Below are positions 14,872 to 30,838 of a DNA stretch of 48,536 nt, piece by piece. The position numbers and the translations under genes were made by a program. Numbering within the stretch: position 1 is the stretch's first letter; each line of letters begins with the position of its first letter. Below the pieces are notes generated by a model. That model did no database searches, was not told the DNA's origin, and was given only the letters and a program-made list of their open reading frames with translations. This DNA is from a virus. The DNA lies in the IMG/VR virus record IMGVR_UViG_3300009285_000015, positions 1-48,536 of that record; one strand, written 5' to 3'.

Positions 14872-15924
14872 GTGGCTGAAAAGAAAAAAGAAGCTACAAA
14901 TAACAATCTCCCACCAGAGCAACGCCTAGCTTGGATTCTTGATAAAGCAATCGCGGACCCAAATATGGGCATTGTTACTTTCATTGGTCCTACGCAGCAA
15001 GGGAAGACACATTTCATTCGGGAATATTTAAAAGAGCATGGGCTTGAAATCATCATGCTCAACCCACAGAATGATCTTCCTGAAGATATTGGCGGCTGGC
15101 CTATGAGAAAAGGAGGAATTCTCTCATTTACCCAGCCTAGTGCTATTCCAGGTAGATTGTTAGAGAATCTGGATTCTAAATGGGCATTGTATATTGATGA
15201 AGGGGATAAAGCAAGAGATGATACTTTATCTTGCTTGTTAACCCTTCTCAATCCCGATGAGCGTAGATTGCGGGAGACGGTTATTCCTTTGCATGTTCCA
15301 ATTATCATGAGTATGAATGAGCGTTCTACCTTACCAGAGCCATTTGTAGCTAGATGTTTGTTTATTGTTTTTCCACAGGAAGATATGTCTGTAACAACAC
15401 GACCTGATCTACTTGTAATAAAACACTTTGCTGAAGAATTATGCCCACCCCCCAAAGTTTCATTCCCTGCAAGACCAGATACACCAGGAAGTTTGCATAA
15501 GTTAGTTAGGTGGATGAAGTTACCAGAGTTTTGGAAAGATGAGGGAATAAGGTGGGCAATTGTTCGTGGATTGTTTAGTGAAAAAGGAGCAACTGTAGTC
15601 ATGTCTCGCCTTATGGACGTTGTGCCTAAGCACTGTAAAGAATGGGCTGAAGTGGTGAAATCAAGTGATTTGAATGAGAACATTATTGAAATCTTGAGTG
15701 CAGCGAATTATCAGGAAGCTGTAGACGTGTTGACTGTCTTAGCAAAGAGAGCAAATGAGGACCCAACCGGTGAATTGGATAAAATGTTTACTGCTTTCTT
15801 AAACACACCTAAAGCTTTGTATGGGGTTAAACGGCCTGCCCATTTGGATATTGGAAAAGCTGCTTTGAAAGAAGTCCTTGGAAAAATAAAGAGTGAAGAT
15901 GCAGTTACAGAGAAGAAAAAGTAA
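14872..15924 (+). CDS. MoxR/AAA_5-like AAA+ ATPase (350 aa, GTG start)
   Basis: Walker A is GPTQQGKT and Walker B is ALYIDEGDKA. It is paired with a downstream vWA protein, as in MoxR-vWA/CobS-CobT-like systems. Confidence 0.65.
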   Translation: MAEKKKEATNNNLPPEQRLAWILDKAIADPNMGIVTFIGPTQQGKTHFIREYLKEHGLEIIMLNPQNDLPEDIGGWPMRKGGILSFTQPSAIPGRLLENLDSKWALYIDEGDKARDDTLSCLLTLLNPDERRLRETVIPLHVPIIMSMNERSTLPEPFVARCLFIVFPQEDMSVTTRPDLLVIKHFAEELCPPPKVSFPARPDTPGSLHKLVRWMKLPEFWKDEGIRWAIVRGLFSEKGATVVMSRLMDVVPKHCKEWAEVVKSSDLNENIIEILSAANYQEAVDVLTVLAKRANEDPTGELDKMFTAFLNTPKALYGVKRPAHLDIGKAALKEVLGKIKSEDAVTEKKK

Positions 15925-16109
15925 TGTTGCCCCATAGAAAACTTATTGTTAAGGGGTGTGGCCATCTTTGTTTGAAAACGGCAAATATTGCCCTAACTAC
16001 TAATCGTATTTACCAGTCCACGGCAAAATGCGCTTTATGTGATCCTAGTATACGTGGACTTTGTGCTGTTTGCCAGGAGGGAACTAGTGACAAATCGACT
16101 GCCATCTGA
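15924..16109 (+). CDS. CGH miniprotein family member, long form (61 aa)
   Basis: MLPHRKLIVKGCGHLCLK...CALC...CAVC. The ATG overlaps the upstream stop (TAATG). Confidence 0.6.
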   Translation: MLPHRKLIVKGCGHLCLKTANIALTTNRIYQSTAKCALCDPSIRGLCAVCQEGTSDKSTAI

Positions 16110-17163
16110 AGTACCGCCAGCGGTTGCTACTTTCCTTAACCTGTGTGATGAAATAATAGACGCAAAATTGCCAATGGGGCGACTTGGTACTAGTTTAGTA
16201 AAGGGAAAGCTGACGTTATATTTAGGTGATAGTTATTTACAGTCTGATGAAGAACAAAAGATAGATGACTTAAAGCACGAAACTGGACATTTTGTGCTTC
16301 AGCATTTACCTAGGTGCGGCGAGAGAGATAAAATTCGGTTCAATTTAGTATGTGACGCATCATTAGCATATCAAGGAATAAACATAACTTTACCAACTGA
16401 TGTAACGTTTGATAAGCTGCCGTGTAAACACGGCGGAACTGTTCCACCTTCTGCACCTGAAGTAGCGTATGATCTACTAGCTGAGAATCCCAGTGGAGAG
16501 AGTTGTGGCTCTTTAATCATTTCCTTTTGTGATGACACACCAGAGAGTAAAGCTAAGTTAGCAATAATTGGAGCAATCATTAAAGCAAAGCATCCTGATT
16601 TTCTACAGTTTAATGGTGCTGGAAATGAAGCTGGAACTGGTAGAAGCATTCCTGAAATTCCGCCCCAACCTCCTTGGATACGTAGTGTACTTGATTATTT
16701 ATTGAAGACTACTCGTTCTTTAGACAGGCGCCGTTCTTGGAGAAGAGAACACCGAGCACTTCCCGATTTACTTCCGGGGCGTTCTAGAAGCTATGATATT
16801 GCTTGTAGGATACTGTACGATGCTTCAGGATCAATTAGTCAAGAGTTATCTGCACAATTCCTTGGAGCTATAGCAAATACACCTGAATTAGCGGGCTCTG
16901 ATGTGGTAGTGTTTGATACAAAGATTAGTAAACCTATACCCGTAAATAACATAAAGGCTATATGTGACAAAGTAGAAGAAATGGGGGGTGGTACTGCTAT
17001 CAAGAAAGCAGGTATGAAGGGGCGGCTACTTACTGTCCCAATTGTGTGGCTAACTGATTGCGAGAGTGGAGACGGATTTCCTCCACCACACGATACTGTA
17101 GAAATATGGTGCGTAAGTGGCTCAGCTAATCACCCTCATGGAATAAGGGTGCAAGTTGATTAA
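16087..17163 (+). CDS. vWA-domain protein with N-terminal HExxH metallopeptidase-like region (DUF2201-like)
   Basis: HETGHFVLQH is the HExxH motif, and the MIDAS-like DASGSIS is followed by VVVFD. I chose the GTG start at 16087 because AGGAGGG sits 6 nt upstream; the ORF-track start 16039 is also possible. Confidence 0.65.
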   Translation: MTNRLPSEVPPAVATFLNLCDEIIDAKLPMGRLGTSLVKGKLTLYLGDSYLQSDEEQKIDDLKHETGHFVLQHLPRCGERDKIRFNLVCDASLAYQGINITLPTDVTFDKLPCKHGGTVPPSAPEVAYDLLAENPSGESCGSLIISFCDDTPESKAKLAIIGAIIKAKHPDFLQFNGAGNEAGTGRSIPEIPPQPPWIRSVLDYLLKTTRSLDRRRSWRREHRALPDLLPGRSRSYDIACRILYDASGSISQELSAQFLGAIANTPELAGSDVVVFDTKISKPIPVNNIKAICDKVEEMGGGTAIKKAGMKGRLLTVPIVWLTDCESGDGFPPPHDTVEIWCVSGSANHPHGIRVQVD

Positions 17164-17329
17164 GGTTATAGAGAAGAGCGACAGTAAAATTCCCTTTTTA
17201 TGCATTAGTGCAGACATTTTGACCGGCATGCATTTGCATTTAAGTCCTTGTGGACACATTTATGATAGAGGGGACGGTGGTATTCAGGCAAGGCATAACC
17301 TCTGTATAGAGTGTTATGAAAACAAATGA
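17156..17329 (+). CDS. CGH miniprotein family member (57 aa, TTG start inferred)
   Basis: ..KIPFLCISADILTGMHLHLSPCGHIYDRGDGGIQARHNLCIECYENK. The frame is open from 17147, and the TTG at 17156 overlaps the upstream stop region. Not in the ORF track. Confidence 0.55.
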   Translation: MIKVIEKSDSKIPFLCISADILTGMHLHLSPCGHIYDRGDGGIQARHNLCIECYENK

Positions 17330-17532
17330 TTGTAATAGAACAGCCTCCTTTTGATCCTTGGTTCTGTATACTTGTTCATAATCGGATTCATTTACATCTT
17401 TGTGCAATATGTGGATGCATTAACGATACTTTGGGGGAATTAGATCAATTTAATTGTGGAGAATGCATTGACAAAGGACGAATTAGTAGAAATAGTAATT
17501 CCACTACGCCAAGTTTACCTACCAAAACTTGA
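17326..17532 (+). CDS. Divergent CGH-family relative (CGC variant; 68 aa, 3' end uncertain)
   Basis: MIVIEQPPFDPWFCILVHNRIHLHLCAICGCIND...NCGEC. IHLHLCAICGC parallels MHLHLSPCGH of the preceding gene. The tail overlaps the sigma gene by 77 nt. Confidence 0.45.
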   Translation: MIVIEQPPFDPWFCILVHNRIHLHLCAICGCINDTLGELDQFNCGECIDKGRISRNSNSTTPSLPTKT

Positions 17533-17977
17533 AAGATTCTTTGGATATGAAGCTGAAGATATATTTGCCAATGCTGTTGCATCAACACTTGCAAGGGCAA
17601 GTATATTCCAATCTAGTCCACATGTTCAAATATTCTTTGCTAAAAATATCAGCGGAAGAATAAAGAGTGAGTTTAGACGGAATACACGAAAGGGAAAATT
17701 AACAGATGCTTTATCTTCAGATGCTTTATCTTCAGAGCGGCTCCTTGTTACTGACATTAGTGGGCGTTATGATCTTAGGCAAGCCTTAAATCTTGCATTG
17801 GACGCACTTACTCCACCCATGAAGATGGCAGTTTGGCGTGTTCATGCATTAGGTGAAACACAAAGAATAGTTGCTAAGAGCTTGAAGCTAACCAGGGATA
17901 AGTTAAGAGTAAGATTAAAGGTTGCATTGCTTACATTAAGGGAGCACCCAGCATTAAGCCCGTGGAAACGTAGGTGA
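17456..17977 (+). CDS. Sigma-70-family (ECF-like) sigma factor (173 aa, GTG start)
   Basis: Region-2-like FFGYEAEDIFANAV and a region-4 helix-turn-helix (MKMAVWRVHALGETQRIVAKSLKLTRDKLRVRLKVALLTLRE). Confidence 0.6.
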   Translation: MENALTKDELVEIVIPLRQVYLPKLERFFGYEAEDIFANAVASTLARASIFQSSPHVQIFFAKNISGRIKSEFRRNTRKGKLTDALSSDALSSERLLVTDISGRYDLRQALNLALDALTPPMKMAVWRVHALGETQRIVAKSLKLTRDKLRVRLKVALLTLREHPALSPWKRR

Positions 17978-18380: not shown

Positions 18381-18548
18381 ATGAGGCATAACTTTCTCGT
18401 AACAACAGGAAAGGGAGAAACCGCAGGAAGTGCTGTATTTTGGGAGACTGCCCATGTAGCTATCTGGCAATGTGGGCACCTTTGGTTGCATGATTTTACA
18501 ACTGCCCATAATGCGTGTAAGGGATGTCAAGAATGTTTCTTAGTGTAA
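18381..18548 (+). CDS. CGH miniprotein family member (55 aa)
   Basis: MRHNFLVTTGKGETAGSAVFWETAHVAIWQCGHLWLHDFTTAHNACKGCQECFLV. It converges on and overlaps the helicase 3' end by 9 nt. Not in the ORF track. Confidence 0.6.
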   Translation: MRHNFLVTTGKGETAGSAVFWETAHVAIWQCGHLWLHDFTTAHNACKGCQECFLV

Positions 18549-19424
18549 AGTATGCTTACAAGGATTAGAAGATAAAACTTGATAATACAGCTTTCTAGAA
18601 ATACCAAACTTATCCCTAGCAATAGGGGCAATTTGATTATGGCTCAATTCAGGAAACTCTTTACAGAGAGAAAGAATATTAGCTTTAATGTTTTTCAATT
18701 CTGCAAGTTTGGGGAAAGACCAAAAACCAGATTCTTCTCTAACTGCTTCAATCGTAGTATCTTCATCAAACCTTGGAACAATGCGGAGCTTGTTTTTATA
18801 AAGAAACCAGACAGCATCCGCTTTTCCTACCATGTAACTACTCCCTCTCCCATACGTCATGGGATCGGGGTTAGGTACATCAGGAGGGATTTTGCGAGAA
18901 TGGTGAATCACCAAAAGAGAGCATTTAGGGAATGTTGATAACAAACCATCTCCAACTAGCTTCATGGTTGTGCTATCATTCTCGTCAACAGCATGCACTT
19001 CTCTCAGTACATCAAGGATTATTAATTCTGCTTGGGATTGTTCTACATAACTTCTTAAAATGTTACGGTCACTCTCTAAGAGAATATTATATCTTCCCCA
19101 GTTATCAGGATGTACAAAGAATACAGGGCCACTTAAATCTTCCCCACATTCCTTCAACGAGCGAGTTACAATGCGCCAGACTCTAGGTCGAGCATCTAAT
19201 TGTAAATATAAAGAAACAATTGGTTTATCTATCTCATGGCCAAGGATAGGCTTTGCTTGTGCCGCATCCCTGGCCAATTGGAGAGCCAAAAATGATTTCC
19301 CTTCCTTTGGTGGTCCTATTAACAGGATTAATCCTTCTCGTGGTATTAGGTTTGGTATAAGCCAATCGGGTTCTTTGACTGGCAATTCTGAGTATTCATT
19401 GAGGGTTACTAGTTGACTCACCAT
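18540..19424 (-). CDS. RecA-fold replicative helicase-like ATPase (RepA/DnaB C-terminal/AAA_25-like), 294 aa
   Basis: Walker A is GPPKEGKS, Walker B is LIILDVLREVH, and LLVIHHSRK is also present. A strong AAGGAG lies 4 nt upstream of the ATG. It is the only minus-strand gene inside the rightward arm. Confidence 0.7.
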   Translation of the reverse strand: MVSQLVTLNEYSELPVKEPDWLIPNLIPREGLILLIGPPKEGKSFLALQLARDAAQAKPILGHEIDKPIVSLYLQLDARPRVWRIVTRSLKECGEDLSGPVFFVHPDNWGRYNILLESDRNILRSYVEQSQAELIILDVLREVHAVDENDSTTMKLVGDGLLSTFPKCSLLVIHHSRKIPPDVPNPDPMTYGRGSSYMVGKADAVWFLYKNKLRIVPRFDEDTTIEAVREESGFWSFPKLAELKNIKANILSLCKEFPELSHNQIAPIARDKFGISRKLYYQVLSSNPCKHTLH

Positions 19425-19592
19425 ATCTCCTTAACCGAAATACAAAAAGGCTGCCTTGTTATCAAAGCAGATGCAATTCCACCTTCTGGGCCTAACGCCT
19501 GTGGTCATTTTTGTGCTCAAATTCATGTTGCTGGATGCTGCGAATGTGGAGATACAATTCACCCCTGTTTTATTTGTCAAATTGGCAAGTAA
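19413..19592 (+). CDS. CGH miniprotein family member, long form (59 aa if the TTG start is used; possibly decaying)
   Basis: ..KGCLVIKADAIPPSGPNACGHFCAQIHVAGCCECGDTIHPCFICQIGK. There is no in-frame ATG, and the only start candidate (TTG at 19413) overlaps the divergent helicase start by 12 nt. Confidence 0.4.
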   Translation: MTHHISLTEIQKGCLVIKADAIPPSGPNACGHFCAQIHVAGCCECGDTIHPCFICQIGK

Positions 19593-19655: not shown

Positions 19656-19665
19656 TTATTATATA

Positions 19666-19932
19666 ATGAGAAGTGGAATGAAGTGTCATTCTGTCAATGA
19701 GAGGCATGTTACCTGCTTTGATTTTGGGGATTTCAACCTCAGTCTCTGTGCTTGTGGGCACTTTTGTTTTTTCATGTCCAGTACTTGCTGTGAATGCAAT
19801 CCTTCAACTACACAACAGGATTTACGTCATTGTCTAATACACAAGTCTTTAGCCCCTCTCAAACAGCAGGCTATCTCTTCTGTCCAATGTATCGTTGGCT
19901 CAGACAAGAAGGTTGGAGAGAGAGAAAAGTAA
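19666..19932 (+). CDS. CGH miniprotein family member with extended tail (88 aa)
   Basis: MRSGMKCHSVNERHVTCFDFGDFNLSLCACGHFCFFMSSTCCEC... The frame stays open to 19932, overlapping the nuclease gene by 139 nt. Confidence 0.45.
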   Translation: MRSGMKCHSVNERHVTCFDFGDFNLSLCACGHFCFFMSSTCCECNPSTTQQDLRHCLIHKSLAPLKQQAISSVQCIVGSDKKVGEREK

Positions 19933-20693: not shown

Positions 20694-20827
20694 TTGAGCC
20701 AAAAACGCTAGGCTGGCTAGCAGGAATTATTGAGGGAGAAGGCTCTATTCACGTACTCGATAGATTAGGTAAATCGTTAGGGGTTTCAGTTGGGATGAAT
20801 AGTAAGTATGTGAAATATGTTAATTGA
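20690..20827 (+). pseudogene. Truncated LAGLIDADG homing-endonuclease remnant (45 codons)
   Basis: MIEPKTLGWLAGIIEGEGSIHVLDRLGKSLGVSVGMNSKYVKYVN* carries a clear LAGLIDADG-type motif (LAGIIEGEGS). It stops after 45 aa, whereas intact enzymes are roughly 150-250 aa. Confidence 0.6.
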
Positions 20828-20990
20828 GGATTTAGTAACGGGCACATTTTGGGTAACTACAACTAGTTCAGGGGTGTATGTAGCTAAAAGCAGAAAATCT
20901 CCTCCACCTTTAATGCTTTATAAAAAGTGTGGCCATATCAGTACAAAGAAGACTTTAGTTTTACCTTGTGAGTGTAAAGAAGAAAAATGA
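20817..20990 (+). CDS. CGH miniprotein family member (57 aa)
   Basis: MLIEDLVTGTFWVTTTSSGVYVAKSRKSPPPLMLYKKCGHISTKKTLVLPCECKEEK. The stop overlaps the next ATG (ATGA). Not in the ORF track. Confidence 0.6.
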   Translation: MLIEDLVTGTFWVTTTSSGVYVAKSRKSPPPLMLYKKCGHISTKKTLVLPCECKEEK

Positions 20991-21169
20991 TTTATGTATT
21001 GGGTGGCAATGAGTGGGGAGCGTATTTCAGTTCTGGTGCAATAAATGAGGCAGACCCCAACTGTAAAGGCATGATTGTAGTTTTACATTGTGGGCATATA
21101 ATTGATAGGCAGGCTGAGTTTCCTGAACACTGTAAGGAGTGCCCTAAACATTATAATGAGAGTCCATAA
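20987..21169 (+). CDS. CGH miniprotein family member (60 aa)
   Basis: ...NCKGMIVVLHCGHIIDRQAEFPEHCKECPKHYNESP. It is coupled to both neighbours. Confidence 0.65.
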   Translation: MIYVLGGNEWGAYFSSGAINEADPNCKGMIVVLHCGHIIDRQAEFPEHCKECPKHYNESP

Positions 21170-21333
21170 TGATCAATCTTGAAGCTGGAACATGGGGAGA
21201 TACTCATGTATGCATTGTTATTTACGATAACATATATCACATTTTGACCCACATTGAACTTTACCCGTGTGGACATTTGATTCAAGGAGACGGCTCTAAG
21301 GGATTTTGTAATTGTAAGAATGGGGCAAAATGA
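21169..21333 (+). CDS. CGH miniprotein family member (54 aa)
   Basis: MINLEAGTWGDTHVCIVIYDNIYHILTHIELYPCGHLIQGDGSKGFCNCKNGAK. It has TAATG and ATGA junctions. Not in the ORF track. Confidence 0.65.
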   Translation: MINLEAGTWGDTHVCIVIYDNIYHILTHIELYPCGHLIQGDGSKGFCNCKNGAK

Positions 21334-22511: not shown

Positions 22512-22529
22512 TTGGGAGGAAATGTCATC

Positions 22530-23063
22530 TTGAGAGAGTTAGAAATTTCTGAAATCATGAACGAAGTAGCAGAAAGTGGCCTCAAAGGTGAAGCCACTAT
22601 TGTTAGAACTGTGCCTACTGGTAAGTATGCTTTGCGTTCTCAGGGCGGAAAAGCCTACGTTGATGATACTGAAGTACCCTATCTTAACGTGAATGTGATC
22701 TTTGAGCAGGACGGAGCGAGGCGGGGGAGTGGCTTTCTTAAGGCTACTTGGAAGAAGGAGCGGACTACTACTGGTAAGTTGACTAGGAGGGCATCCCTTT
22801 ATGGTCAATTGCTGAAGGCATTAGATTTACCTGAAGATACACCTGTTCCTAAAGTGCTAGATGCTATTCAAGCTACTGTGTTAGGGGCGTATGTTACCGA
22901 AGGGCTGAAGAGTCCTGATGGTTTGTTTGTTGGCATTGGTGCTGAACATAGGGATAGAGAAGGTACTCCCCAACAAGTTACTAAGGAAGAGGCACAATCG
23001 TTAATCGCTGCTGGGTGGACTCCATTTAATAGCATTGTGAATGTGTTTAAGTTAAAGGGCTAG
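22530..23063 (+). CDS. Hypothetical protein (possible ssDNA-binding role by position only), about 177 aa
   Basis: Intact ORF. The start is uncertain: TTG at 22512 or 22530, or ATG at 22557, with GGGAGG at 22514-22519. No motif recognised. Confidence 0.45.
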   Translation: MRELEISEIMNEVAESGLKGEATIVRTVPTGKYALRSQGGKAYVDDTEVPYLNVNVIFEQDGARRGSGFLKATWKKERTTTGKLTRRASLYGQLLKALDLPEDTPVPKVLDAIQATVLGAYVTEGLKSPDGLFVGIGAEHRDREGTPQQVTKEEAQSLIAAGWTPFNSIVNVFKLKG

Positions 23064-23266
23064 TGTACACAGAGAAATTGAGTGTTTTTGGTGTTTCTGT
23101 GAAAAGTAAGTTTGATACATATACTCTTGGAGCAGCCTTAGTCTTAACTAATAGATTGAGCAATGAACCAAGGTATTGGGAACTTTGGCGAAATTGTGGA
23201 CATTTGAATTTTTATCAAAAAGGTGGGGAAAATCGCTGTGACTGTGATAAATTCAATGCTTCCTAA
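23063..23266 (+). CDS. CGH miniprotein family member (67 aa, GTG start overlapping the upstream TAG)
   Basis: ...EPRYWELWRNCGHLNFYQKGGENRCDCDKFNAS. Confidence 0.6.
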   Translation: MYTEKLSVFGVSVKSKFDTYTLGAALVLTNRLSNEPRYWELWRNCGHLNFYQKGGENRCDCDKFNAS

Positions 23267-23699
23267 ACCTGAAGCCTGCCGTCCATGCCCAATGGCGGGG
23301 GATATGCTTGGGTTCTGCCCTGATGATGAACCAGTGAATGCAGCAAAAGTGTTTGTCTTAGGGCAGAACCCAGGATCAGATGAAGAGAGCAAAGGGACAG
23401 CATTCATTGGTAAGACTGGGGATATGCTTATCAATGAATTCTTTCCTCGTGGGGGATTGATTAGAGGGGAAAATGCTATTTGTGGGAATGCCATTAAGTG
23501 CAGGTGGGTTAAAGATGGGAAAAGAGTTAATGAATTACCCCCCGCTGCAATACTCAATACTGCATTAGAGCACTGTGTTAAGGCACATCTACGTATTCCG
23601 AAGGATATTACATTGGTAGTTGCTTGTGGAGCCTTGGCATGGAAAGCGGTTGGTGGAGAAGGAAAGATAACGGATTGGAGGGGTTTTTTAAAGCCATGA
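23256..23699 (+). CDS. Uracil-DNA-glycosylase-superfamily (family 4-like) protein (147 aa from the ATG at 23256)
   Basis: VFVLGQNPGSDEESKGTAFIGKTGDMLINEF matches the GE.PG..E...G.PF.G..G..L motif of family-4 UDGs. N-terminal CRPC is present. Its position upstream of a family-A polymerase is common in phages. Confidence 0.55.
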   Translation: MLPKPEACRPCPMAGDMLGFCPDDEPVNAAKVFVLGQNPGSDEESKGTAFIGKTGDMLINEFFPRGGLIRGENAICGNAIKCRWVKDGKRVNELPPAAILNTALEHCVKAHLRIPKDITLVVACGALAWKAVGGEGKITDWRGFLKP

Positions 23700-23863
23700 T
23701 GTGGGTAATGCTTCTTCAGAATTATTTTTGTATTGCTGATACTGGTATTAAATGTGTTAAAAAGCACCCACCCGCTTGGCTTTTCCCCTGTGGTCACATA
23801 TGCACCGACACTACATTACCTAGTAATAATTGTCATCCGAATTGTGTTGAGAAGGAAAAATGA
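23696..23863 (+). CDS. CGH miniprotein family member (55 aa)
   Basis: MMWVMLLQNYFCIADTGIKCVKKHPPAWLFPCGHICTDTTLPSNNCHPNCVEKEK. Both junctions are ATGA overlaps. Confidence 0.65.
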   Translation: MMWVMLLQNYFCIADTGIKCVKKHPPAWLFPCGHICTDTTLPSNNCHPNCVEKEK

Positions 23864-24033
23864 GGGTACACCTAGATGTGTCAGAAGATATAGTAGCTAC
23901 TATTTGTGCAACTGGGGCTTGTGCGCGTTTTTCCCCCCATGTTTGGCTAAGGCGTTGTGGGCATCTTTATCTTGTTACAATGAATAATGTACGTGAACAA
24001 GCAGGGGAGTGCTCTTGCAATGGAAACAAATGA
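23860..24033 (+). CDS. CGH miniprotein family member (57 aa)
   Basis: MRVHLDVSEDIVATICATGACARFSPHVWLRRCGHLYLVTMNNVREQAGECSCNGNK. Not in the ORF track; the track shows a different-frame shadow at 23733..23987. Confidence 0.6.
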   Translation: MRVHLDVSEDIVATICATGACARFSPHVWLRRCGHLYLVTMNNVREQAGECSCNGNK

Positions 24034-24223: not shown

Positions 24224-24236
24224 GCATAAATGAACC

Positions 24237-24401
24237 ATGATTGAGACGGCTGATTATCATAACCAGTATTTCTTTGTAGGAGTTAGTGGAACAGGGAGAA
24301 GTATCAACAAGGCTTGGCTATTTCCATGCGGTCACATGGAAAATACGGAGCTATATGAAGAGAGAGAGTATTCTTGTTTTCGTAAGTGTACAGAAAAATG
24401 A
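24237..24401 (+). CDS. CGH miniprotein family member (54 aa)
   Basis: MIETADYHNQYFFVGVSGTGRSINKAWLFPCGHMENTELYEEREYSCFRKCTEK. Its stop overlaps the next ATG (ATGA). Not in the ORF track. Confidence 0.65.
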   Translation: MIETADYHNQYFFVGVSGTGRSINKAWLFPCGHMENTELYEEREYSCFRKCTEK

Positions 24402-27485: not shown

Positions 27486-27634
27486 TAACAATTCTTGAGC
27501 GAAACTTTGTTGGATTTGGTATTTACTCTGGTGTTATAAGTACCGATCCTTATATTATACGGTGGCTCTTACCTTGTGGTCACATGCTTAGTGATTGGAA
27601 GAGAGACTGTAGATGTGATAATGATAAACAGTGA
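27482..27634 (+). CDS. CGH miniprotein family member (50 aa)
   Basis: MITILERNFVGFGIYSGVISTDPYIIRWLLPCGHMLSDWKRDCRCDNDKQ. The ATGA overlap joins it to the exonuclease stop. Not in the ORF track. Confidence 0.65.
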   Translation: MITILERNFVGFGIYSGVISTDPYIIRWLLPCGHMLSDWKRDCRCDNDKQ

Positions 27635-27767
27635 CCCACCGAAACCATTTGGGACATGTTTTTGGAAAGCAGACGAAAATTTATATGTTTGGCTCTTGCC
27701 ATGTGGACATTTCTGTAAAGGGACGGTTAAAGTTTGCTTGTGTCCAATAAAAAAGAGGGAAGAATAA
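27621..27767 (+). CDS. CGH miniprotein family member (48 aa)
   Basis: MINSDPPKPFGTCFWKADENLYVWLLPCGHFCKGTVKVCLCPIKKREE. The start is ATG 27621 or GTG 27615. The next gene starts directly after its TAA. Confidence 0.65.
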   Translation: MINSDPPKPFGTCFWKADENLYVWLLPCGHFCKGTVKVCLCPIKKREE

Positions 27768-27992
27768 ATGGAAAAGAGTAAGTCAAGGAAAGTAAATGGT
27801 TATGTAAAGGCAGTTTTGAAAAGGGATAAACTAGCTCGAAAGCTAGCAGAAGCACAATCTGAGGTAACAATTAGAGAGGCTGCATTGAAGGGGGGGCAAT
27901 TAGCTGAAGCATTAAGGATGTTGGGGACTGCTATGGATAATGAAGAGTTCTTTGCTAGTCCAATAGATGAGGAGGAAGGCGGAGAGAGTTGA
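27768..27992 (+). CDS. Hypothetical helical/charged protein (74 aa)
   Basis: Intact, tightly coupled ORF. Confidence 0.45.
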   Translation: MEKSKSRKVNGYVKAVLKRDKLARKLAEAQSEVTIREAALKGGQLAEALRMLGTAMDNEEFFASPIDEEEGGES

Positions 27993-28486
27993 TTACCATT
28001 TACTTAGCCGGTGCAATTAGAGATGGCAGATTAGATGATATAGAGTGGAGGGAGAAAGCTATTTCTGAATTGGCTGGTAAGGCTGTCTTTCTTAACCCCC
28101 TTAGTAGGAAGCACTTTGACGCAAAGAATAGTATCTGGACTTTAGCAGGAAGGAAAGTAACCGCGCATTCTATAGTTAAATATGACCTTAATGCAGTCAA
28201 GAGAGCAGATGTTGTTCTGGCAAACTTAACTTCTCTTAGTGAACACTATCCTTCCATTGGTACATTGATTGAGTTAGGGGCAGCAGCTTCAGGGGGAAAG
28301 CTAATTTATCTTATCTTGGACAAGAATTTCGCTGGTCATGAGAATGCTGTCTTTACTTTACATCCATTCTTACAGGAGCTAGCTACAGAAATATTTGAGT
28401 CAGTTGATGAAGCTATTGAGTTCTTGAAGAGATTTCTTCCTGCACTGGACGGAACACAGCCAAGGTTTGGAGAGTTTTATGCCTAA
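27989..28486 (+). CDS. Nucleoside 2-deoxyribosyltransferase-like protein (165 aa)
   Basis: N-terminal IYLAGAIRDG and SIGTLIELGAAASGGKLIYLI match the Rossmann-like start and catalytic-Glu segment of the NDT/Rcl superfamily. Confidence 0.55.
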   Translation: MITIYLAGAIRDGRLDDIEWREKAISELAGKAVFLNPLSRKHFDAKNSIWTLAGRKVTAHSIVKYDLNAVKRADVVLANLTSLSEHYPSIGTLIELGAAASGGKLIYLILDKNFAGHENAVFTLHPFLQELATEIFESVDEAIEFLKRFLPALDGTQPRFGEFYA

Positions 28487-28853
28487 CTCTGCTTGGTTGG
28501 AAGGTTATCAAAATGCGTCTATTTCTCAAGGCATCATTCCACAAGGCGAGAAATATGATAATGATAAATTAAGACTTGACTTACTTCCATTTGATGCCTT
28601 GCTAGAAGTGGGAAAAGTATACTCGCTGGGTAGTGTCAAGTATACTGATCGTAACTGGGAGAAGGGCATTAACTATATGCGAATAGTAGGTGCCCTTCTA
28701 AGGCATCTTTTCTCTTGGATATGTGGAGAAGAAAGAGCCCAAGATGATGAGCAAAGGCATCTAGCTAGTGTAGTTTGGTGTGGACTTGCTCTATTGACTT
28801 ATGAATTACGTGGAATGAAAGAGTTTGATGATAGAAATATCTCGTTTAAATGA
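28479..28853 (+). CDS. DUF5664 / dATP-dGTP diphosphohydrolase N-terminal-like domain protein (124 aa)
   Basis: KYDNDKLRLDLLPFDALLEVGKVYSLGSVKYTDRNWEKG...ALLRHLFSW...HLASVVWCGLALL matches, from memory, the widespread phage KyD.GK.r.dLlp...l..va.vl.fG..KY...NW domain. Confidence 0.6.
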   Translation: MPNSAWLEGYQNASISQGIIPQGEKYDNDKLRLDLLPFDALLEVGKVYSLGSVKYTDRNWEKGINYMRIVGALLRHLFSWICGEERAQDDEQRHLASVVWCGLALLTYELRGMKEFDDRNISFK

Positions 28854-29040
28854 TGGTAAAGAACCCAAAGTATTTACTTTATGGCATGCCGGTGGGTACA
28901 CTTCACTCCATAATTGCGGACACCTCGATAAGTGGTGGGTTATAGACCGGGGCTGTTGTTTATGCCGAGGGTATGGTAAGTTAGTAGGCAATAACCAATG
29001 TGAAGACTGTGAGATTTGCCAGTATAGGAAAGAAGAATGA
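28828..29040 (+). CDS. CGH miniprotein family member, long form (70 aa)
   Basis: MIEISRLNDGKEPKVFTLWHAGGYTSLHNCGHLDKWWVIDRGCCLCRGYGKLVGNNQCEDCEICQYRKEE. It is a tandem paralogue of the next gene. Confidence 0.65.
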   Translation: MIEISRLNDGKEPKVFTLWHAGGYTSLHNCGHLDKWWVIDRGCCLCRGYGKLVGNNQCEDCEICQYRKEE

Positions 29041-29240
29041 TTAAAGAAGTATCTATGGGAAACAGTAGAGAACCAAAGTTCTTTCAATTCAATGCAACTC
29101 ATCAAATTGCTGGAACTAGTTATTTCACCCTTCATTCTTGTGGTCATTTAGATCGGTGCTGGATTATTACTGGTGACTGCTGTGTTTGTAGAAGGAAATC
29201 TTGGGGAGATTGCCCAGTATATGCCGTTGCAAATCCTTAA
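29037..29240 (+). CDS. CGH miniprotein family member (67 aa)
   Basis: MIKEVSMGNSREPKFFQFNATHQIAGTSYFTLHSCGHLDRCWIITGDCCVCRRKSWGDCPVYAVANP. ATGA junction. Confidence 0.65.
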   Translation: MIKEVSMGNSREPKFFQFNATHQIAGTSYFTLHSCGHLDRCWIITGDCCVCRRKSWGDCPVYAVANP

Positions 29241-29454
29241 GAAATTTACTCCTTCTAAGAATCTAGTGAAGTGGTACACAATAGCATGGCCATGTGAATG
29301 GCTTGGCTGTTCTAATACTGCTAAACTGTTAGTGCATGATAGAAAGAATATATTGCCTGATTATAGAATGTGCGGGAACCATGCGCATGAAATGAGGGAG
29401 GAATGTGATAGATTTACTCTTTGGCATCTTTCGTATAGAGATAAGGGAGATTAA
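29221..29454 (+). CDS. Small zinc-finger-like protein (77 aa; WPCEWLGC...MCGNHAH)
   Basis: The C-x4-C...C-x2-H arrangement resembles treble-clef fingers found next to HNH/AP2-type phage proteins. Start choice is ATG 29221. Confidence 0.45.
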   Translation: MPLQILKKFTPSKNLVKWYTIAWPCEWLGCSNTAKLLVHDRKNILPDYRMCGNHAHEMREECDRFTLWHLSYRDKGD

Positions 29455-29584
29455 GAACAAATTAATATGTTTTCTCTTCGGTCATATCGAGCAAACAAGA
29501 TTTGAAATAATCAACTGGGGGAACCACTTTAATCACCAGTTGGGGAACTATGTTGATTGTGCTCGCTGTGGTAAGAGACTATGA
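29405..29584 (+). CDS. DUF1660-like miniprotein (59 aa, GTG start)
   Basis: MIDLLFGIFRIEIREIKNKLICFLFGHIEQTRFEIINWGNHFNHQLGNYVDCARCGKRL. The C-x3-GH...C-x-R-C-G pattern is typical of small prophage proteins (from memory). GAGGGAGG is upstream. It overlaps the previous ORF by 50 nt. Confidence 0.35.
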   Translation: MIDLLFGIFRIEIREIKNKLICFLFGHIEQTRFEIINWGNHFNHQLGNYVDCARCGKRL

Positions 29585-29733
29585 TTGATCCCAAACCTTT
29601 AACCTGTCTAGAGTGTAGAGAAAGAGGGGAAGATTCTATAGTGACAGAAGAATGGAAGCATGCTGGAGTTGAGTCTTATTTAACTGTTGAATGTACTGTA
29701 TGTGGATGGAAAAGTAGATATGGCCCAATATGA
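29581..29733 (+). CDS. 50-aa CxxC...CxxC zinc-ribbon protein
   Basis: MIDPKPLTCLECRERGEDSIVTEEWKHAGVESYLTVECTVCGWKSRYGPI. Both junctions are ATGA overlaps. Not in the ORF track. Confidence 0.55.
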   Translation: MIDPKPLTCLECRERGEDSIVTEEWKHAGVESYLTVECTVCGWKSRYGPI

Positions 29734-29954
29734 AAGCTATTCTTGAATTTAATCTTCCAGATGAATCTCCTGAGCATCAAGCAGCCCTTCATGGAACAGC
29801 ATATTCTGCTCTCATATCTGAGGTACTTGAATATATTCGGAGTGAATTGAAGTATAAAGAACTAACTAAAGATAGATCAGATGCTCTTGACGAATTAAGA
29901 ACTAAGATTTATGAATATATAGAAGAGTATGGTGTACAGGAGATATTAAGATGA
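29730..29954 (+). CDS. Hypothetical acidic helical protein (74 aa)
   Basis: Intact coupled ORF. Confidence 0.5.
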   Translation: MKAILEFNLPDESPEHQAALHGTAYSALISEVLEYIRSELKYKELTKDRSDALDELRTKIYEYIEEYGVQEILR

Positions 29955-29970
29955 AACCGGGGAAAAATAA

Positions 29971-30360
29971 ATGACTACCATTGAACGTCCATATCTATAT
30001 ATCAAACCTCCAGACATGGAAGAAGCCGGTCGCTATCTATTAATAGCAGCGAGACCGGCTTTTGGTACTACTATTGGAACACCAGTTATGGTTAAATTAG
30101 ATTATATTAAACACTTTGGAATGGGAGAATCTGCTTGGATTGAAGGATATACAGAGTTAAATAATGAACTTGAGAAAGTAATTGAATTCCCCGCTATGTG
30201 TCCTTATTTGTTGATTCCCGCGCATAGAACACAATTACTTAGTGCAGAAGAAGCAGCAAGTAAGGATAAAGAGTTATCTAAGAAGATAGAGAGTGTACTG
30301 AAAGATCAAGCTGAGAGAGAAGAGGCAGGAGGAGAGAAGGCCATTGGGGTGTATCTATGA
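29971..30360 (+). CDS. Hypothetical protein (129 aa)
   Basis: Intact ORF with GGGGAAAAA upstream. Its stop overlaps the next start. Confidence 0.5.
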   Translation: MTTIERPYLYIKPPDMEEAGRYLLIAARPAFGTTIGTPVMVKLDYIKHFGMGESAWIEGYTELNNELEKVIEFPAMCPYLLIPAHRTQLLSAEEAASKDKELSKKIESVLKDQAEREEAGGEKAIGVYL

Positions 30361-30665
30361 AAGTAAAGAAATTACTCACAATAGATATTCTTGGTTATCA
30401 ATTTAATATTGTTGAAGATGGAGAGATAGTAAGGCGGGGTAAAGAGGGTGAGTGTGATATGGAGAAAGAATTAATTACAATTAACCCCAATCAATCGAGG
30501 CGGGGTATAGCTGATACTCTCTTACATGAGATACTACATGTTATCAATGGGACTGGGCTTGATGCGGAGAATCAGTTGAACGAAATGCAAGTTACTTATT
30601 TTGGGACTGTCTTGGCTGAAGTGCTTAGGAGGAATCCTCAATTACAAAAGATATTGACAGAGTAA
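30357..30665 (+). CDS. Small HExxH-motif protein (putative metallopeptidase-like), 102 aa
   Basis: It carries LLHEILHVINGTG. The call rests on this motif only. Confidence 0.35.
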   Translation: MKVKKLLTIDILGYQFNIVEDGEIVRRGKEGECDMEKELITINPNQSRRGIADTLLHEILHVINGTGLDAENQLNEMQVTYFGTVLAEVLRRNPQLQKILTE

Positions 30666-30838
30666 TGATAGAGGTTTTTCCACCCAAAGCGTATCCCCAT
30701 ACTTGTCTTTTTAGGCGCGGGGTGAAGCATACTCATTTATACCCATGTGGTCATATTACAGCAGATACACAAAAAATCCTGTGTCAAGAGTGTACTAATC
30801 TTGAAGATCAAGTAGCTCCTTCATTAGTGCACCCCTAA
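30665..30838 (+). CDS. CGH miniprotein family member (57 aa), last gene of the rightward arm
   Basis: MIEVFPPKAYPHTCLFRRGVKHTHLYPCGHITADTQKILCQECTNLEDQVAPSLVHP. TAATG junction. It overlaps the convergent 1135-aa gene by 44 nt. Not in the ORF track. Confidence 0.6.
   Translation: MIEVFPPKAYPHTCLFRRGVKHTHLYPCGHITADTQKILCQECTNLEDQVAPSLVHP

What the first reader, a model, noticed from the sequence alone, without database searches (positions are those of the whole stretch)
15924..30838. About 19 strict (plus about 5 divergent) copies of a tiny CGH...CxC Cys/His miniprotein gene run through the whole replication module
Hand translation of the gaps between replication genes reveals one recurring minigene. 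Nineteen plus-strand ORFs of 48-88 codons share an invariant Cys-Gly-His after a hydrophobic/aromatic stretch, roughly [WLY]-[LFY]-x-x-C-G-H-[ILMF]. A C-x-C or C-x-x-C follows 8-21 residues later, then a short charged tail.

Strict members (start coordinate and motifs): 15924 (KGCGHLC..CALC..CAVC), 17156 (SPCGHIY..CIEC), 18381 (WQCGHLW..CKGC), 19413 (NACGHFC..CCEC..CFIC), 19666 (CACGHFC..CCEC), 20817 (KKCGHIS..CEC), 20987 (LHCGHII..CKEC), 21169 (YPCGHLI..CNC), 23063 (RNCGHLN..CDC), 23696 (FPCGHIC..CHPNC), 23860 (RRCGHLY..CSC), 24237 (FPCGHME..CFRKC), 24398 (YRCGHIM..CPC), 26562 (TVCGHMC..CCDC..CLAC), 27482 (LPCGHML..CRC), 27621 (LPCGHFC..CLC), 28828 (HNCGHLD..CCLC..CEDCEIC), 29037 (HSCGHLD..CCVC), 30665 (YPCGHIT..CQEC). 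Divergent relatives are at 17326 (CGC), 26708 (CEH), 14653, 13480 and 29221/29405.

Ten members are shorter than 60 aa and so are absent from the supplied ORF track.

Conservation is at the protein level, not the DNA level. The tripeptide is written with TGT or TGC, all four GGN codons and both CAY codons, and the flanking nucleotides differ between copies.

Two architectures exist. The short form has one C-x-H...C-x(1-2)-C set, giving four potential Zn ligands. The long form is CGH-x-C...CC-x-C...C-x-x-C.

Copies occur singly and in tandem runs (20817/20987/21169; 23696/23860; 24237/24398; 26562/26708; 27482/27621; 28828/29037). Most are coupled to neighbours by ATGA/TAATG overlaps. Together they take up roughly 3 kb of a 48-kb genome.

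The core superficially recalls the central LPCGHxFC of RING fingers and the C-x3-GH...CxRCG pattern of DUF1660-type prophage miniproteins. It matches neither fully.

I infer an expanded family of zinc-ribbon/treble-clef-like effectors (host takeover, anti-defence, or replisome accessory) or selfish minigenes.
Basis: partly seen in the sequence, partly recalled or inferred. Interest (0 to 1): 0.9.

Follow-up and report, generated by a model that had tools for sequence, protein, structure and literature searches.

The report
Expanded zinc-finger minigene family in phage
A 48-kb groundwater phage spends about 8% of its genome on some 21 fast-evolving copies of a previously undescribed 50-90-residue Cys/His (probably zinc-binding) miniprotein scattered among its DNA-replication genes; divergent and unrelated uncultured phages carry similar multi-copy sets, and what the proteins do is unknown.

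Summary
Nineteen plus-strand ORFs of 48-88 aa between 15924 and 30838 carry [VI]-W-L-x-P-C-G-H-[MLFI] followed 8-21 residues later by C-x(1-3)-C. Dinucleotide shuffles give a mean of 0.15 and a maximum of 3; the minus strand has none. 26708 (CEH) is also a member and 17326 (CGC) is borderline. The other "divergent relatives" are not supported.

These are genuine genes. dN/dS is 0.15-0.25 against a recombinant strain. Positional orthologues exist in Hainich groundwater relatives. The short (C,H,C,C) and long (eight-ligand) forms are homologous (hhalign 95%).

No Pfam, PHROG, NCBIfam or PADLOC model and no GenBank phage matches. There is only remote similarity to DUF4379 treble-clef repeats and to RING fingers. 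Membership of either was tested and not met.

The family is a hot spot of gene turnover:
- Related phages hold it in the same inter-gene slots, but with different copy numbers (17 copies in 10.5 kb).
- Amino-acid divergence is 2-4.5 times that of the neighbouring core genes.
- Unrelated contigs (GC 43-72%) also carry 3-8 copies, several beside nucleases, nucleotide-metabolism genes or a family-A polymerase.

My best reading is a set of stand-alone zinc-stabilised mini-domains used as a diversifying repertoire of binding modules. The function is inferred, not shown.

The parts
15924..16109 (+). Member, 61 aa, long-form-like (CGHLC..CALC..CAVC), unusually long 21-residue spacer; starts on the last base of the upstream ATPase-like gene
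   Evidence: (E 1.9e-11); a 97%-identical variant, P0006, occurs in another metagenome
17156..17329 (+). Member, 57 aa, short form (CGHIY..CIEC), TTG start overlapping the end of gene 16039-17163
   Evidence: (E 4.3e-10)
17326..17532 (+). Borderline member, 68 aa (C-G-C in place of C-G-H, then CGEC), ATGA overlap with 17156
   Evidence: E 0.07; E 0.1; position, MIVIE N-terminus and ligand-for-ligand H-to-C change favour membership; not proven
18381..18548 (+). Member, 55 aa, short form (CGHLW..CKGC), converges on the minus-strand helicase-like gene
   Evidence: E 7.2e-8
19413..19592 (+). Member, 59 aa, long form (CGHFC..CCEC..CFIC), TTG start
   Evidence: relative L055 has three tandem copies of this type in the same slot
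19666..19932 (+). Member, 88 aa from the ATG at 19666 (gene callers extend it upstream to 135-153 aa), long form with the last Cys replaced by His
   Evidence: (P0010); start codon uncertain
20817..20990 (+). Member, 57 aa, short form (CGHIS..CEC)
   Evidence: P0005
20987..21169 (+). Member, 60 aa, short form (CGHII..CKEC), ATGA overlap
   Evidence: positional orthologue in L055 (67% by BLAST; 61% over the global alignment)
21169..21333 (+). Member, 54 aa, short form (CGHLI..CNC), TAATG overlap; ATGA overlap with the downstream Sak4-like gene
23063..23266 (+). Member, 67 aa, short form (CGHLN..CDC), GTG start on the last base of gene 22512-23063
   Evidence: P0003 found on 16 metagenome contigs
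23696..23863 (+). Member, 55 aa, short form (CGHIC..CHPNC), ATGA overlap with UDG
   Evidence: closest paralogue is 24237
23860..24033 (+). Member, 57 aa, short form (CGHLY..CSC), ATGA overlap
   Evidence: P0021; closest paralogue is 24398
24237..24401 (+). Member, 54 aa, short form (CGHME..CFRKC)
   Evidence: dN/dS 0.25 against the L008 orthologue; orthologues in L054-L056
24398..24583 (+). Member, 61 aa, short form (CGHIM..CPC), ATGA overlap; its end overlaps the polA start
   Evidence: dN/dS 0.145 against the L008 orthologue P0015
26562..26711 (+). Member, 49 aa, long form (CGHMC..CCDC..CLAC), ATGA overlap with polA
   Evidence: orthologues after polA in L054, L055 and L057
26708..26914 (+). 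Member, 68 aa, long form with CEH in place of CGH (CEHFC..CCVC..CTIC), ATGA overlap
   Evidence: (E 6e-4); orthologues 54-57% identical, with CGH in L054 and L055 and CMH in L057
27482..27634 (+). Member, 50 aa, short form (CGHML..CRC), ATGA overlap with the exonuclease-like gene
   Evidence: P0001; orthologues in L054, L055 and L057; AF2 model m77df949e80d7
27621..27767 (+). Member, 48 aa, short form (CGHFC..CLC), overlaps 27482 by 14 nt
   Evidence: P0020; closest paralogue is 27482
28828..29040 (+). Member, 70 aa, long form (CGHLD..CCLC..CEDCEIC)
   Evidence: P0011; orthologues in L054 and L057; closest paralogue is 29037
29037..29240 (+). Member, 67 aa, long form lacking the last Cys (CGHLD..CCVC..CPVY), ATGA overlap
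   Evidence: P0031 and variant P0009
30665..30838 (+). Member, 57 aa, short form (CGHIT..CQEC), last gene of the plus-strand module; converges on the minus-strand 1135-aa gene
   Evidence: E 4.6e-16; P0002; L054 has three copies and L057 two in this slot

Best explanation
The region encodes about 21 paralogous, separately translated miniproteins of 48-88 aa belonging to a family that has not been described.

Proposed fold (inferred). Each protein folds into a small beta-meander. Its last strand ([VI]-W-L-x-P) ends in a Cys-Gly-His knuckle. A variable loop of 8-21 residues follows, and then a C-x(1-3)-C pair at the start of a short helix. The four invariant residues (Cys, His, Cys, Cys) would bind one zinc ion in a treble-clef-like arrangement. 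The long form adds four more Cys: one at His+2, one directly before the CxC, and a C-terminal C-x-x-C. These would bind a second zinc in an interleaved, cross-brace-like order.

Expression (overlaps shown, coupling inferred). The genes lie in the early/middle plus-strand replication operon. Most are set up for translational coupling to the upstream gene through ATGA or TAATG overlaps.

Evolution (shown). Only the scaffold is conserved and the surfaces are free to change. The family evolves by local duplication and loss inside fixed inter-gene slots, with fast amino-acid divergence, while staying under purifying selection.

Function (inferred). I think the proteins most likely work as a diversifying repertoire of small binding modules. 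Each would dock onto a different macromolecular target, most probably host or competitor proteins, as phage accessory or counter-defence proteins do. I think a shared enzymatic or DNA-binding role is less likely.
For: The family is real and non-random:
- 19 motif ORFs against a mean of 0.15 and a maximum of 3 in shuffles; none on the minus strand.

The genes are coding and constrained:
- dN/dS is 0.25 and 0.145 for two members against a recombinant strain, compared with 0.12 for polA.
- Seven members have positional orthologues in Hainich relatives.
- Synonymous codons vary at the CGH motif.

Scaffold and ligands:
- The only invariant columns are C, G, H, C, C, and C, H, C in a 46-sequence alignment from eight contig sources.
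- The strand before CGH is hydrophobic: position -3 is hydrophobic in 91% and position +3 in 96%.
- Short and long forms are homologous (hhalign 94.8%).
- The AF2 secondary structure puts strands before the knuckle and helices starting at the CxC/CCxC and CxxC pairs. Confidence is low.

Treble-clef affinity:
- The family profile retrieves PF14311 repeat proteins from 1.84 billion sequences.
- hhalign gives 60-75% against mostly below 3% for reversed or column-shuffled controls.
- Weak hits are to the RING clan and to a rubredoxin-like domain.
- The treble clef is defined as a knuckle plus a helix N-terminus, each giving two ligands (PMC4999995).

Diversification:
- Paralogues are 15-33% identical.
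- Minigene dN is 0.37-0.74 against 0.15-0.28 for flanking core genes in the same genome pairs.
- Copy number per slot differs between relatives.
- There is a strain polymorphism for one whole minigene.
- Neighbouring copies are more alike than chance (p about 0.015-0.04).

Against a uniform DNA binder:
- pI runs from 5.3 to 9.3 and net charge from -4 to +5.

Multi-copy is a family trait in unrelated contigs:
- L014 has 4 copies, L015 has 5 and L016 has 8.
- L052 has 3.
- L113 has 8.

Precedent for a small treble-clef zinc protein acting as a protein inhibitor: CsfB, an anti-sigma factor (PMC5890618).
Against: - No experiment or confident structure shows zinc binding or the fold. AF2 pLDDT is about 60 and the Foldseek searches were empty.
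- The target class is pure inference. Nothing in the data identifies a partner.
- The nearest detectable relatives, DUF4379-like repeats, are thought to be DNA-binding modules of homing endonucleases (PMC12350094). That favours the nucleic-acid-binding rival.
- The DUF4379 repeats used in the hhalign test were picked from the family's own hits, so that test is partly circular.
- Where dN/dS can be estimated it stays below 1 (about 0.4). Positive selection is therefore not demonstrated, only faster evolution.
- The recurring position beside replication genes, and beside polA in the unrelated L113, could mean a replication-linked role rather than a host-directed one.
- The host is unknown.
Confidence: 0.45

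Rival explanations
1. Stand-alone nucleic-acid-binding fingers. The miniproteins would be free-standing versions of the DUF4379/CapR-type modules that homing endonucleases use to grip DNA. They would bind DNA or RNA as regulators of the replication/early operon, as markers of phage DNA, or as shields of cleavage sites against competitors' endonucleases.
For: - The only family-level similarity above controls is to PF14311 repeats.
- Such repeats are proposed nuclease-associated DNA-binding modules (PMC12350094).
- The minigenes sit among nucleases, UDG and polymerase genes.
- L016 has an Endonuclease_7 gene in the same array.
Against: - pI runs from 5.3 to 9.3, with eight acidic members and net charges down to -4.
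- The N-terminal W-H-P-x-K-N part of DUF4379 is absent, and no member hits the Pfam model.
- The similarity is short, rests largely on the ligand columns, and is partly circular.
Confidence: 0.22
2. Replisome or recombination accessory subunits. Each minigene product would be a zinc-finger partner of the enzyme encoded immediately upstream, made in fixed ratio with it through translational coupling.
For: - ATGA or TAATG coupling to UDG, polA, the exonuclease-like gene and others.
- Slots after polA, the exonuclease-like gene and the MazZ-like gene keep an orthologue in the relatives that cover them (L054, L055, L057).
- The unrelated 72%-GC contig L113 again places the array next to a family-A polymerase.
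Against: - Copy number per slot varies from 1 to 4 between close relatives.
- Several copies often follow one enzyme.
- The minigenes diverge 2-4.5 times faster than their supposed partners.
- The nearest GenBank phage has the same polymerase type and module layout but no member.
Confidence: 0.13
3. Selfish minigenes. The family would spread and multiply within and between phage genomes for its own sake and be neutral or nearly so for the phage.
For: - It is present in otherwise unrelated phages that share no other detectable genes.
- Copies occupy gene boundaries.
- There is a whole-gene presence/absence polymorphism between strains.
- There is tandem amplification.
Against: - There are no terminal or flanking DNA repeats and no DNA-level similarity beyond the coding motif.
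- No nuclease, integrase or other mobility function could fit in 50 aa.
- The protein sequence is under purifying selection.
- Even the closest paralogues are saturated at synonymous sites, so amplification is old, not ongoing.
Confidence: 0.1
4. Cys-rich precursor peptides (RiPP-like) or secreted peptides, with many variable copies like prochlorosin precursors.
For: Many small, Cys-rich, hypervariable paralogues in tandem.
Against: - No modifying enzyme, transporter or leader/core architecture was found in the window among the larger module genes scanned.
- The conserved part is central, not an N-terminal leader.
- The His and the hydrophobic strand are invariant, as expected for a folded metal site.
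Confidence: 0.03

Closest known systems
PF14311 (DUF4379), 'probable treble clef zinc finger' repeats of homing-endonuclease-like and restriction-like proteins
   Same: - A hydrophobic strand runs into C-G-H (W-W-L-G-x-C-G-H-E-W in the CGH-type repeats), followed by 10-15 residues and a Cys pair.
- The family profile retrieves these proteins.
- hhalign aligns the ligand columns (60-75%, P about 3-8e-5).
- Both families occur in phages and other mobile elements near nucleases.
   Different: - The window proteins are free-standing single domains, not 4-16 repeats fused to a nuclease.
- They lack the N-terminal W-H-P-x-K-N half.
- They use C-x-C far more often than C-P-x-C.
- No member reaches E 1 or E 5 against the Pfam model.
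- The long form has a second set of four Cys that DUF4379 lacks.
RING fingers (Pfam zf-C3HC4_3 / IAP type; Prok-RING_1)
   Same: - The core '[hydrophobic strand]-P-C-G-H-[LMF]' is the same as the C3-x-H4 stretch of IAP/XIAP RINGs.
- The long form's CCxC and C-x-[IV]-C align with C5/C6 and C7/C8.
- There are eight ligands in an order compatible with a cross-brace.
- Sub-threshold hits of six long-form members fall in the RING clan.
   Different: - There is no N-terminal C-x2-C pair (C1/C2).
- The Cys after His is at +2, not at +3 or +4.
- The best E-values are 0.011-0.06 (about 13-16 bits where shown, against cut-offs of 27).
- The short form has only four ligands.
- The Foldseek searches found nothing.
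CsfB/Gin-type small zinc-binding treble-clef inhibitors (functional analogue only)
   Same: A small, single-domain, zinc-stabilised protein whose job is to bind and block another protein (PMC5890618). This is the mode of action proposed here.
   Different: - No sequence relationship was detected.
- To my knowledge CsfB uses CxxC pairs and is a single-copy cellular gene, not a 20-copy phage family (not checked here).
DUF1660-type prophage miniproteins
   Different: No member of the short or long set hits DUF1660 even at E up to 1-5.

Membership tests
RING finger (Pfam RING clan, C3HC4/C3H2C3) | Reaches the curated Pfam score for a RING-clan model | tested here: not met
   Best hits: zf-C3HC4_3 E 0.011 (3 of 22 long-form members), Prok-RING_1 0.013, zf-RING_16 0.028 (14.5 bits against a cut-off of 27.4)..
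RING finger (Pfam RING clan, C3HC4/C3H2C3) | Eight ligands including an N-terminal C-x2-C pair (C1, C2) before the C-x-H pair | tested here: not met
   No conserved Cys lies N-terminal to CGH in alignments A1, A3, A4 or A5. The invariant columns are only C, (G), H and the later Cys. The short form has four ligands in all.
RING finger (Pfam RING clan, C3HC4/C3H2C3) | Cross-braced binuclear treble-clef structure | tested here: inconclusive
   The AF2 long-form model has pLDDT 58.6, with helices starting at CCxC and CxxC. The only Foldseek hit is a RING at E 4.1 and TM 0.2, which is meaningless.
PF14311 DUF4379 treble-clef repeat | Reaches the Pfam gathering score (24.5 bits) | tested here: not met
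   No member is listed for PF14311 at E up to 1 (19 members) or up to 5 (22 long-form members). True DUF4379 proteins score 57-890 bits.
PF14311 DUF4379 treble-clef repeat | Profile-profile similarity over the knuckle-to-CxxC core | tested here: inconclusive
   hhalign probability is 60-75% (P 3e-5 to 8e-5) for the short or mixed profiles and 20% for the long form. Reversed and column-shuffled controls are mostly below 3%, with one at 33%. The repeats were chosen from the family's own hits.
PF14311 DUF4379 treble-clef repeat | N-terminal W-H-P-x-K-N segment and tandem-repeat architecture within one polypeptide | tested here: not met
   The repeats show E-W-H-P-T-K-N-G before the finger. The window proteins have an unrelated, variable N-terminus and one domain per ORF.
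DUF1660 | Pfam model match | tested here: not met
   DUF1660 is not among the hits at E up to 1-5 for any of the members scanned.
Treble-clef zinc finger (fold group; PMC4999995) | Two ligands come from a knuckle at a beta-turn and two from the N-terminus of a helix, with a loop or hairpin between them | tested here: inconclusive
   The sequence pattern fits. In the AF2 short-form model, strands end just before C32/H34 and a helix spans 45-48, starting at C45 of the C43-x-C45 pair, but mean pLDDT is 60.8. No structural match was found.
Zinc-binding protein | Stoichiometric metal binding | not testable with these tools
   Needs purified protein (ICP-MS, PAR assay, or Co(II)/Cd(II) substitution).
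Known anti-phage defence or annotated bacterial families (PADLOC, NCBIfam, PHROGs) | Significant match to any model | tested here: not met
   PHROGs best E 0.0039 for one member. NCBIfam best 0.17. PADLOC best 0.01 for one member.

The most novel reading that the evidence does not exclude
Small tailed phages of groundwater and soil bacteria would carry a previously unrecognised, rapidly diversifying repertoire of zinc-stabilised mini-binders. One minimal scaffold is copied 15-25 times per genome, and each copy is tuned to a different host-defence or competitor target. This would be a phage counterpart of the expanded RING, ankyrin and F-box families of giant viruses. It would also be a natural library of roughly 50-residue binder scaffolds. 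A sharper variant: the long forms are RING-like decoys aimed at bacterial E2/ubiquitin-like defence systems.
Probability: 0.2. Interest if true: 0.85.

Novelty: new variant of a known kind. Interest (0 to 1): 0.7.

Why it matters
Phage genomes are under tight size limits. Even so, this 48.5-kb phage gives about 8% of its DNA, and about half of the genes in its replication module, to one miniprotein family that no database describes. Most members are too short for routine annotation: 12 of 19 are under 60 aa, and several were not called in the public assemblies.

The family combines several features:
- an invariant four-ligand metal site;
- otherwise free sequence;
- turnover of copies within fixed genomic slots;
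- recurrence in unrelated phages.

Counter-defence and host-takeover repertoires show this signature. If that reading holds, the family is a new source of small protein inhibitors and of minimal zinc-binder scaffolds. It would also show that paralogue expansion, well known in giant viruses, operates in ordinary-sized phages.

If the proteins instead prove to be nucleic-acid binders or replisome partners, they would define a new accessory layer of phage family-A polymerase replication modules. Either way, 50-70-residue proteins are easy to synthesise, so the question can be tested directly.

Tried and rejected
- **GenBank phages.** Megablast of the module found nothing. tblastn of two members found nothing significant.
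- **Nearest GenBank phage.** MW202572 (Manatee Spring, polA 34% identical) has the same module layout but no member.
- **Locus search with alignments.** It is impossible because no conserved stretch is long enough.
- **Word-indexed protein searches.** They returned almost only the phage's own proteins and strain variants. The broad 46-sequence profile was too diluted.
- **Degenerate DNA pattern scans.**
  - Of 37 IMG/VR matches, only L052 is convincingly real. L047 and L030 look family-like by eye but were not significant, and L050 is doubtful.
  - Of 66 matches in the GTDB genome collection, one 8-copy array (L113) and three plausible singletons (L087, L088, L091) look real.
  - 13 short-form pattern matches in IMG/VR gave none that is convincing.
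  - Most matches were out-of-frame, low-complexity Cys-codon runs.
- **Structure.** AF2 on two alignments gave pLDDT of about 60. Foldseek against the PDB gave no usable match.
- **False positives of the profile.** These were a eukaryotic RING-repeat protein (P0007) and 'proteins' that look like translated CRISPR arrays (P0016, P0022, P0028).
- **DNA-level motif.** I considered a protein-binding site such as TGTGGTCACA and rejected it, because the synonymous positions of CGH vary freely.
- **His-Me/HNH mini-nuclease.** I rejected it because no residue other than the metal ligands is conserved.
- **Programmed frameshift fusion to upstream enzymes.** I considered it but did not test it. ATGA overlaps are ordinary coupling signals, and I did not look for slippery heptamers.
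- **Literature.** No description of such a family was found. Burroughs et al. 2011 on prokaryotic RINGs was not available.
- **tRNAs.** There are none in the window, so they give no host clue.

Full report

Yes. The ORF list for 13-31.5 kb shows every one of the 19 'strict' ORFs at the coordinates given, on the plus strand, with the motifs as written.

- A six-frame count finds the tripeptide CGH 20 times in plus-strand frames and twice in minus-strand frames.
- 19 occurrences lie in ORFs and are followed within 30 residues by C-x(1-3)-C. Seventeen are CxC or CxxC, and 23696 and 24237 have CxxxC.
- In 300 dinucleotide-preserving shuffles of the whole window, the same count in all six frames had a mean of 0.15 and a maximum of 3.
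- A profile built from the 19 finds no other significant match in the window except 26708 (E 6e-4). It finds nothing on the minus strand or in the structural-gene arms.
- All four GGN codons, both Cys codons and both His codons are used at the motif.
- The only DNA-level repeat family in 13-31 kb is the coding sequence of W-L-x-P-C-G-H in the six most similar copies. There are no flanking repeats.
- Fifteen of the 18 starts printed overlap or abut the stop of the upstream gene, mostly as ATGA or TAATG. The script stopped before 30665, which starts on the last base of the gene ending at 30665.

Small corrections:

- Twelve rather than ten strict members are under 60 aa.
- The strict set is 3,435 nt (7.1% of the window).
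- 26708 is a true member, and 17326 (C-G-C, His replaced by another possible ligand) is borderline at E 0.07-0.1.
- 14653, 13480, 29221 and 29405 score as noise. 29581, which I added to the test, is an ordinary CxxC...CxxC zinc ribbon by its sequence and also scores as noise.

**2. Are they genes?**

The window is a complete or nearly complete phage genome. It recurs at 99.9-100% identity in several groundwater metagenome assemblies, on contigs of 48.4-48.9 kb.

Two contigs (L008, L010) are mosaics. They are identical to the window up to 24221. They then carry a 178-nt insertion that encodes an extra long-form member, and then run at about 85% identity. Across that diverged stretch:

| Gene | dN/dS |
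|---|---|
| 24237 | 0.25 |
| 24398 | 0.145 |
| Start of polA | 0.12 |

These values come and show purifying selection on the protein sequences.

Four Hainich aquifer contigs (L054-L057) come from a related phage whose polymerase is 75-78% identical. They contain positional orthologues of 20987, 24237, 26562, 26708, 27482, 28828 and 30665.

**3. Anatomy of the protein.**

- Alignments of 19, 24 and 46 members keep only C, G, H and the later Cys as invariant or near-invariant columns.
- Anchored on CGH, position -3 is Leu or another hydrophobic residue in 91%. Positions -4 and -5 are mostly Trp and Val/Ile, -1 is often Pro, and +3 is Met/Leu/Phe/Ile in 96%.
- The spacer to the second ligand pair is 8-21 residues.
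- The long form adds a Cys at His+2, a Cys immediately before the CxC (giving CCxC), and a C-terminal C-x-[IV]-C. In a few members the last Cys is His, Tyr, Ser or Ala.
- A window-only short-form profile aligns to the long-form profile with 94.8% probability (P 5e-8), against 0.4% for the reversed control. The two architectures are therefore one family.
- The parsimonious ligand assignment is that C, H and the CxC shared by all members hold one zinc. The four long-form-specific Cys would hold a second zinc, in interleaved order. This is inference.
- AF2 models built on the family alignments are low-confidence (mean pLDDT 60.8 and 58.6). Their secondary structure puts beta-strands before the knuckle and short helices starting at the CxC/CCxC and CxxC pairs. 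That matches the definition of a treble clef, in which the knuckle and the helix N-terminus each give two ligands (PMC4999995).
- The Foldseek searches returned nothing usable.

**4. What is it related to?**

- No member reaches significance in Pfam, PHROGs, NCBIfam or PADLOC.
- No GenBank phage has a detectable homologue.
- A profile search of 1.84 billion representative proteins gave 28 hits. They comprised the phage's own proteins, six small long-form proteins from other metagenomes, multi-repeat PF14311 (DUF4379) proteins confirmed by Pfam, and false positives (a eukaryotic RING repeat and apparent translated CRISPR arrays).
- hhalign of the family against the CGH-type DUF4379 repeats gives 60-75% probability with the knuckle and Cys-pair columns in register. 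Controls are mostly below 3%. The repeats were selected from the family's own hits, so this is suggestive only.
- PDB and Pfam profile searches give weak hits (E 0.01-0.5) that cluster on IAP/XIAP/RCHY1-type RINGs, Prok-RING_1 and a rubredoxin-like domain. The long form's CGH, CCxC and CxIC align to RING ligands 3/4, 5/6 and 7/8.
- The family lacks the first RING ligand pair, and it lacks the N-terminal half and the repeat architecture of DUF4379. Membership of either family was tested and not met.
- I file it as a new family with a treble-clef-like, RING- and DUF4379-reminiscent metal site.

**5. Evolutionary behaviour.**

This is the most informative result. In the Hainich relatives the core genes are 66-81% identical in amino acids over aligned regions (62-81% by BLAST), and the minigenes occupy the same inter-gene slots. 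The number of copies per slot differs:

| Slot | Window | Relatives |
|---|---|---|
| Helicase to nuclease | 2 | 4 in L055 |
| SSB-like gene to UDG | 1 | 2 in L055 |
| UDG to ORF 23987 | 2 | 1 in L055 |
| ORF 23987 to polA | 2 | 3 in L008; 4 in L054/L055 |
| After polA | 2 | 3 in L054/L055; 2 in L057 |
| After gene 30357 | 1 | 3 in L054; 2 in L057 |

- L055 holds 17 members in 10.5 kb and L054 holds 14 in 9.7 kb.
- Orthologous minigenes are 33-61% identical over global alignments (35-67% by BLAST), with dN 0.37-0.74. Eight flanking core genes have dN 0.15-0.28. Where dS is not saturated, dN/dS is about 0.4 against 0.06-0.19.
- Within the window, neighbouring copies are more similar than random pairs (p = 0.015), and 6 of 21 have an immediate neighbour as their best match (p = 0.037).
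- 23696+23860 and 24237+24398 look like a duplicated two-gene unit.
- Even the closest paralogues (28828 and 29037) are saturated at synonymous sites, so the duplications are old.

**6. Distribution.**

Beyond this phage clade, members occur on contigs that share no other detectable protein with the window:

| Locus | Source | GC | Copies | Context |
|---|---|---|---|---|
| L014 | JGI metagenome | 43% | 4 long forms in 3.2 kb | none identified |
| L015 | Logan assembly | 56% | 5 in 2.35 kb | beside a PDDEXK nuclease |
| L052 | IMG/VR, 51-kb contig | 57% | 3 | near a dNMP kinase |
| L113 | contig binned with an Actinomycetes MAG | 72% | 8 tandem copies | directly upstream of a family-A DNA polymerase |

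Single copies also occur on three other soil or groundwater MAG contigs. Multi-copy arrays are thus a trait of the family. Several sit beside nucleases, nucleotide-metabolism genes or a family-A polymerase. The family is rare in IMG/VR and absent from cultured phages.

**7. Mechanism.**

Shown:
- A real, constrained, rapidly turning-over paralogue family with an invariant four-residue (or eight-residue) ligand set.
- Plus-strand, early/middle-module location.
- Overlapping start and stop codons.

Inferred:
- One zinc (short form) or two (long form) stabilise a roughly 50-residue mini-domain.
- The variable loop and sheet surfaces give each copy its own specificity.
- The products act as binding modules.

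I favour protein targets and an accessory or counter-defence role, with confidence of about 0.45 for the whole statement. My reasons:
- Charge is not uniformly basic (pI 5.3-9.3).
- Divergence and copy-number turnover far exceed those of the adjacent enzymes.
- The closest relative by polymerase with the same module layout does without the family.

Small treble-clef zinc proteins acting as protein inhibitors are known, for example CsfB (PMC5890618).

The main rival (0.22) is free-standing nucleic-acid binding. DUF4379-like repeats are thought to be DNA-binding modules of homing endonucleases (PMC12350094). Accessory subunits of the upstream enzymes (0.13), selfish minigenes (0.10) and RiPP-like precursors (0.03) follow. 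Chance is excluded.

**8. Novelty and verdict.**

The fold class is probably a known one, but the family, its two-tier ligand architecture and above all its expansion are not described in any resource or paper I could search. The expansion amounts to about 21 genes, roughly half the genes of the replication module, in a 48.5-kb phage, with parallel arrays in unrelated phages. I rate it a new variant of a known kind, with interest 0.7. The structural interpretation is plausible but unproven, and the function is open but directly testable with synthetic proteins.

Noticed in passing
window 27989-28853: A MazZ-like dATP/dGTP diphosphohydrolase (PF18909, E 3.7e-26; 28467-28853) directly follows a nucleoside 2-deoxyribosyltransferase-like gene (27989-28486). 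UDG and a family-A polymerase lie in the same module. This could indicate non-canonical nucleotide or base metabolism. No PurZ-like gene turned up among the module genes I scanned.
   Followed up: partly
window 18540-19424 (-): The RepA/AAA_25 helicase-like gene is the only minus-strand gene inside the plus-strand module. The distantly related Manatee Spring podovirus MW202572 shows the same inverted repA arrangement.
   Followed up: no
window 24221-24230; L008 11160-11337: This is a strain-level mosaic. L008 and L010 are identical to the window up to 24221. They then carry a 178-nt insertion with an extra long-form minigene, and then run at about 85% identity into polA. That implies recombination with a related phage exactly at a gene boundary.
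   Followed up: yes
L016 1078-1557: The Hainich relative carries an Endonuclease_7-family gene inserted right after UDG that the window lacks. It is a likely free-standing homing-type endonuclease inside the minigene array.
   Followed up: no
window 29581-29733 and 29405-29584: Two further small Cys-containing ORFs sit next to the family but are not members. 29581 is a classical CxxC...CxxC zinc ribbon by its sequence. 29405 has F-G-H...C-A-R-C-G. Both score as noise against the family profiles.
   Followed up: partly
database proteins P0016, P0022, P0028: These predicted 'proteins' consist of the unit FPHLYRCGHIEA repeated with variable spacers. They look like translated CRISPR arrays and are false positives for any CGH-containing profile.
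   Followed up: no
window 14745-15683 (-) and 23144-23797 (-): These long antisense ORFs (312 and 217 aa) lie opposite well-supported plus-strand genes (the ATPase-like gene; UDG and minigenes). They are probably spurious.
   Followed up: no
window 14872-17163 and 17456-17977: An ATPase-like gene (weak PHROG ATPase hit) is followed by a gene with a faint DUF2201 Pfam hit and a PHROG 'HNH endonuclease' label. A weak sigma-factor-like gene comes next. So the module may encode its own transcription factor.
   Followed up: no
window 1-48536: ARAGORN found no tRNA or tmRNA genes. The source samples are groundwater metagenomes (PRJNA292723 and others), and the relatives come from the Hainich aquifer wells. 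The host is unknown.
   Followed up: partly
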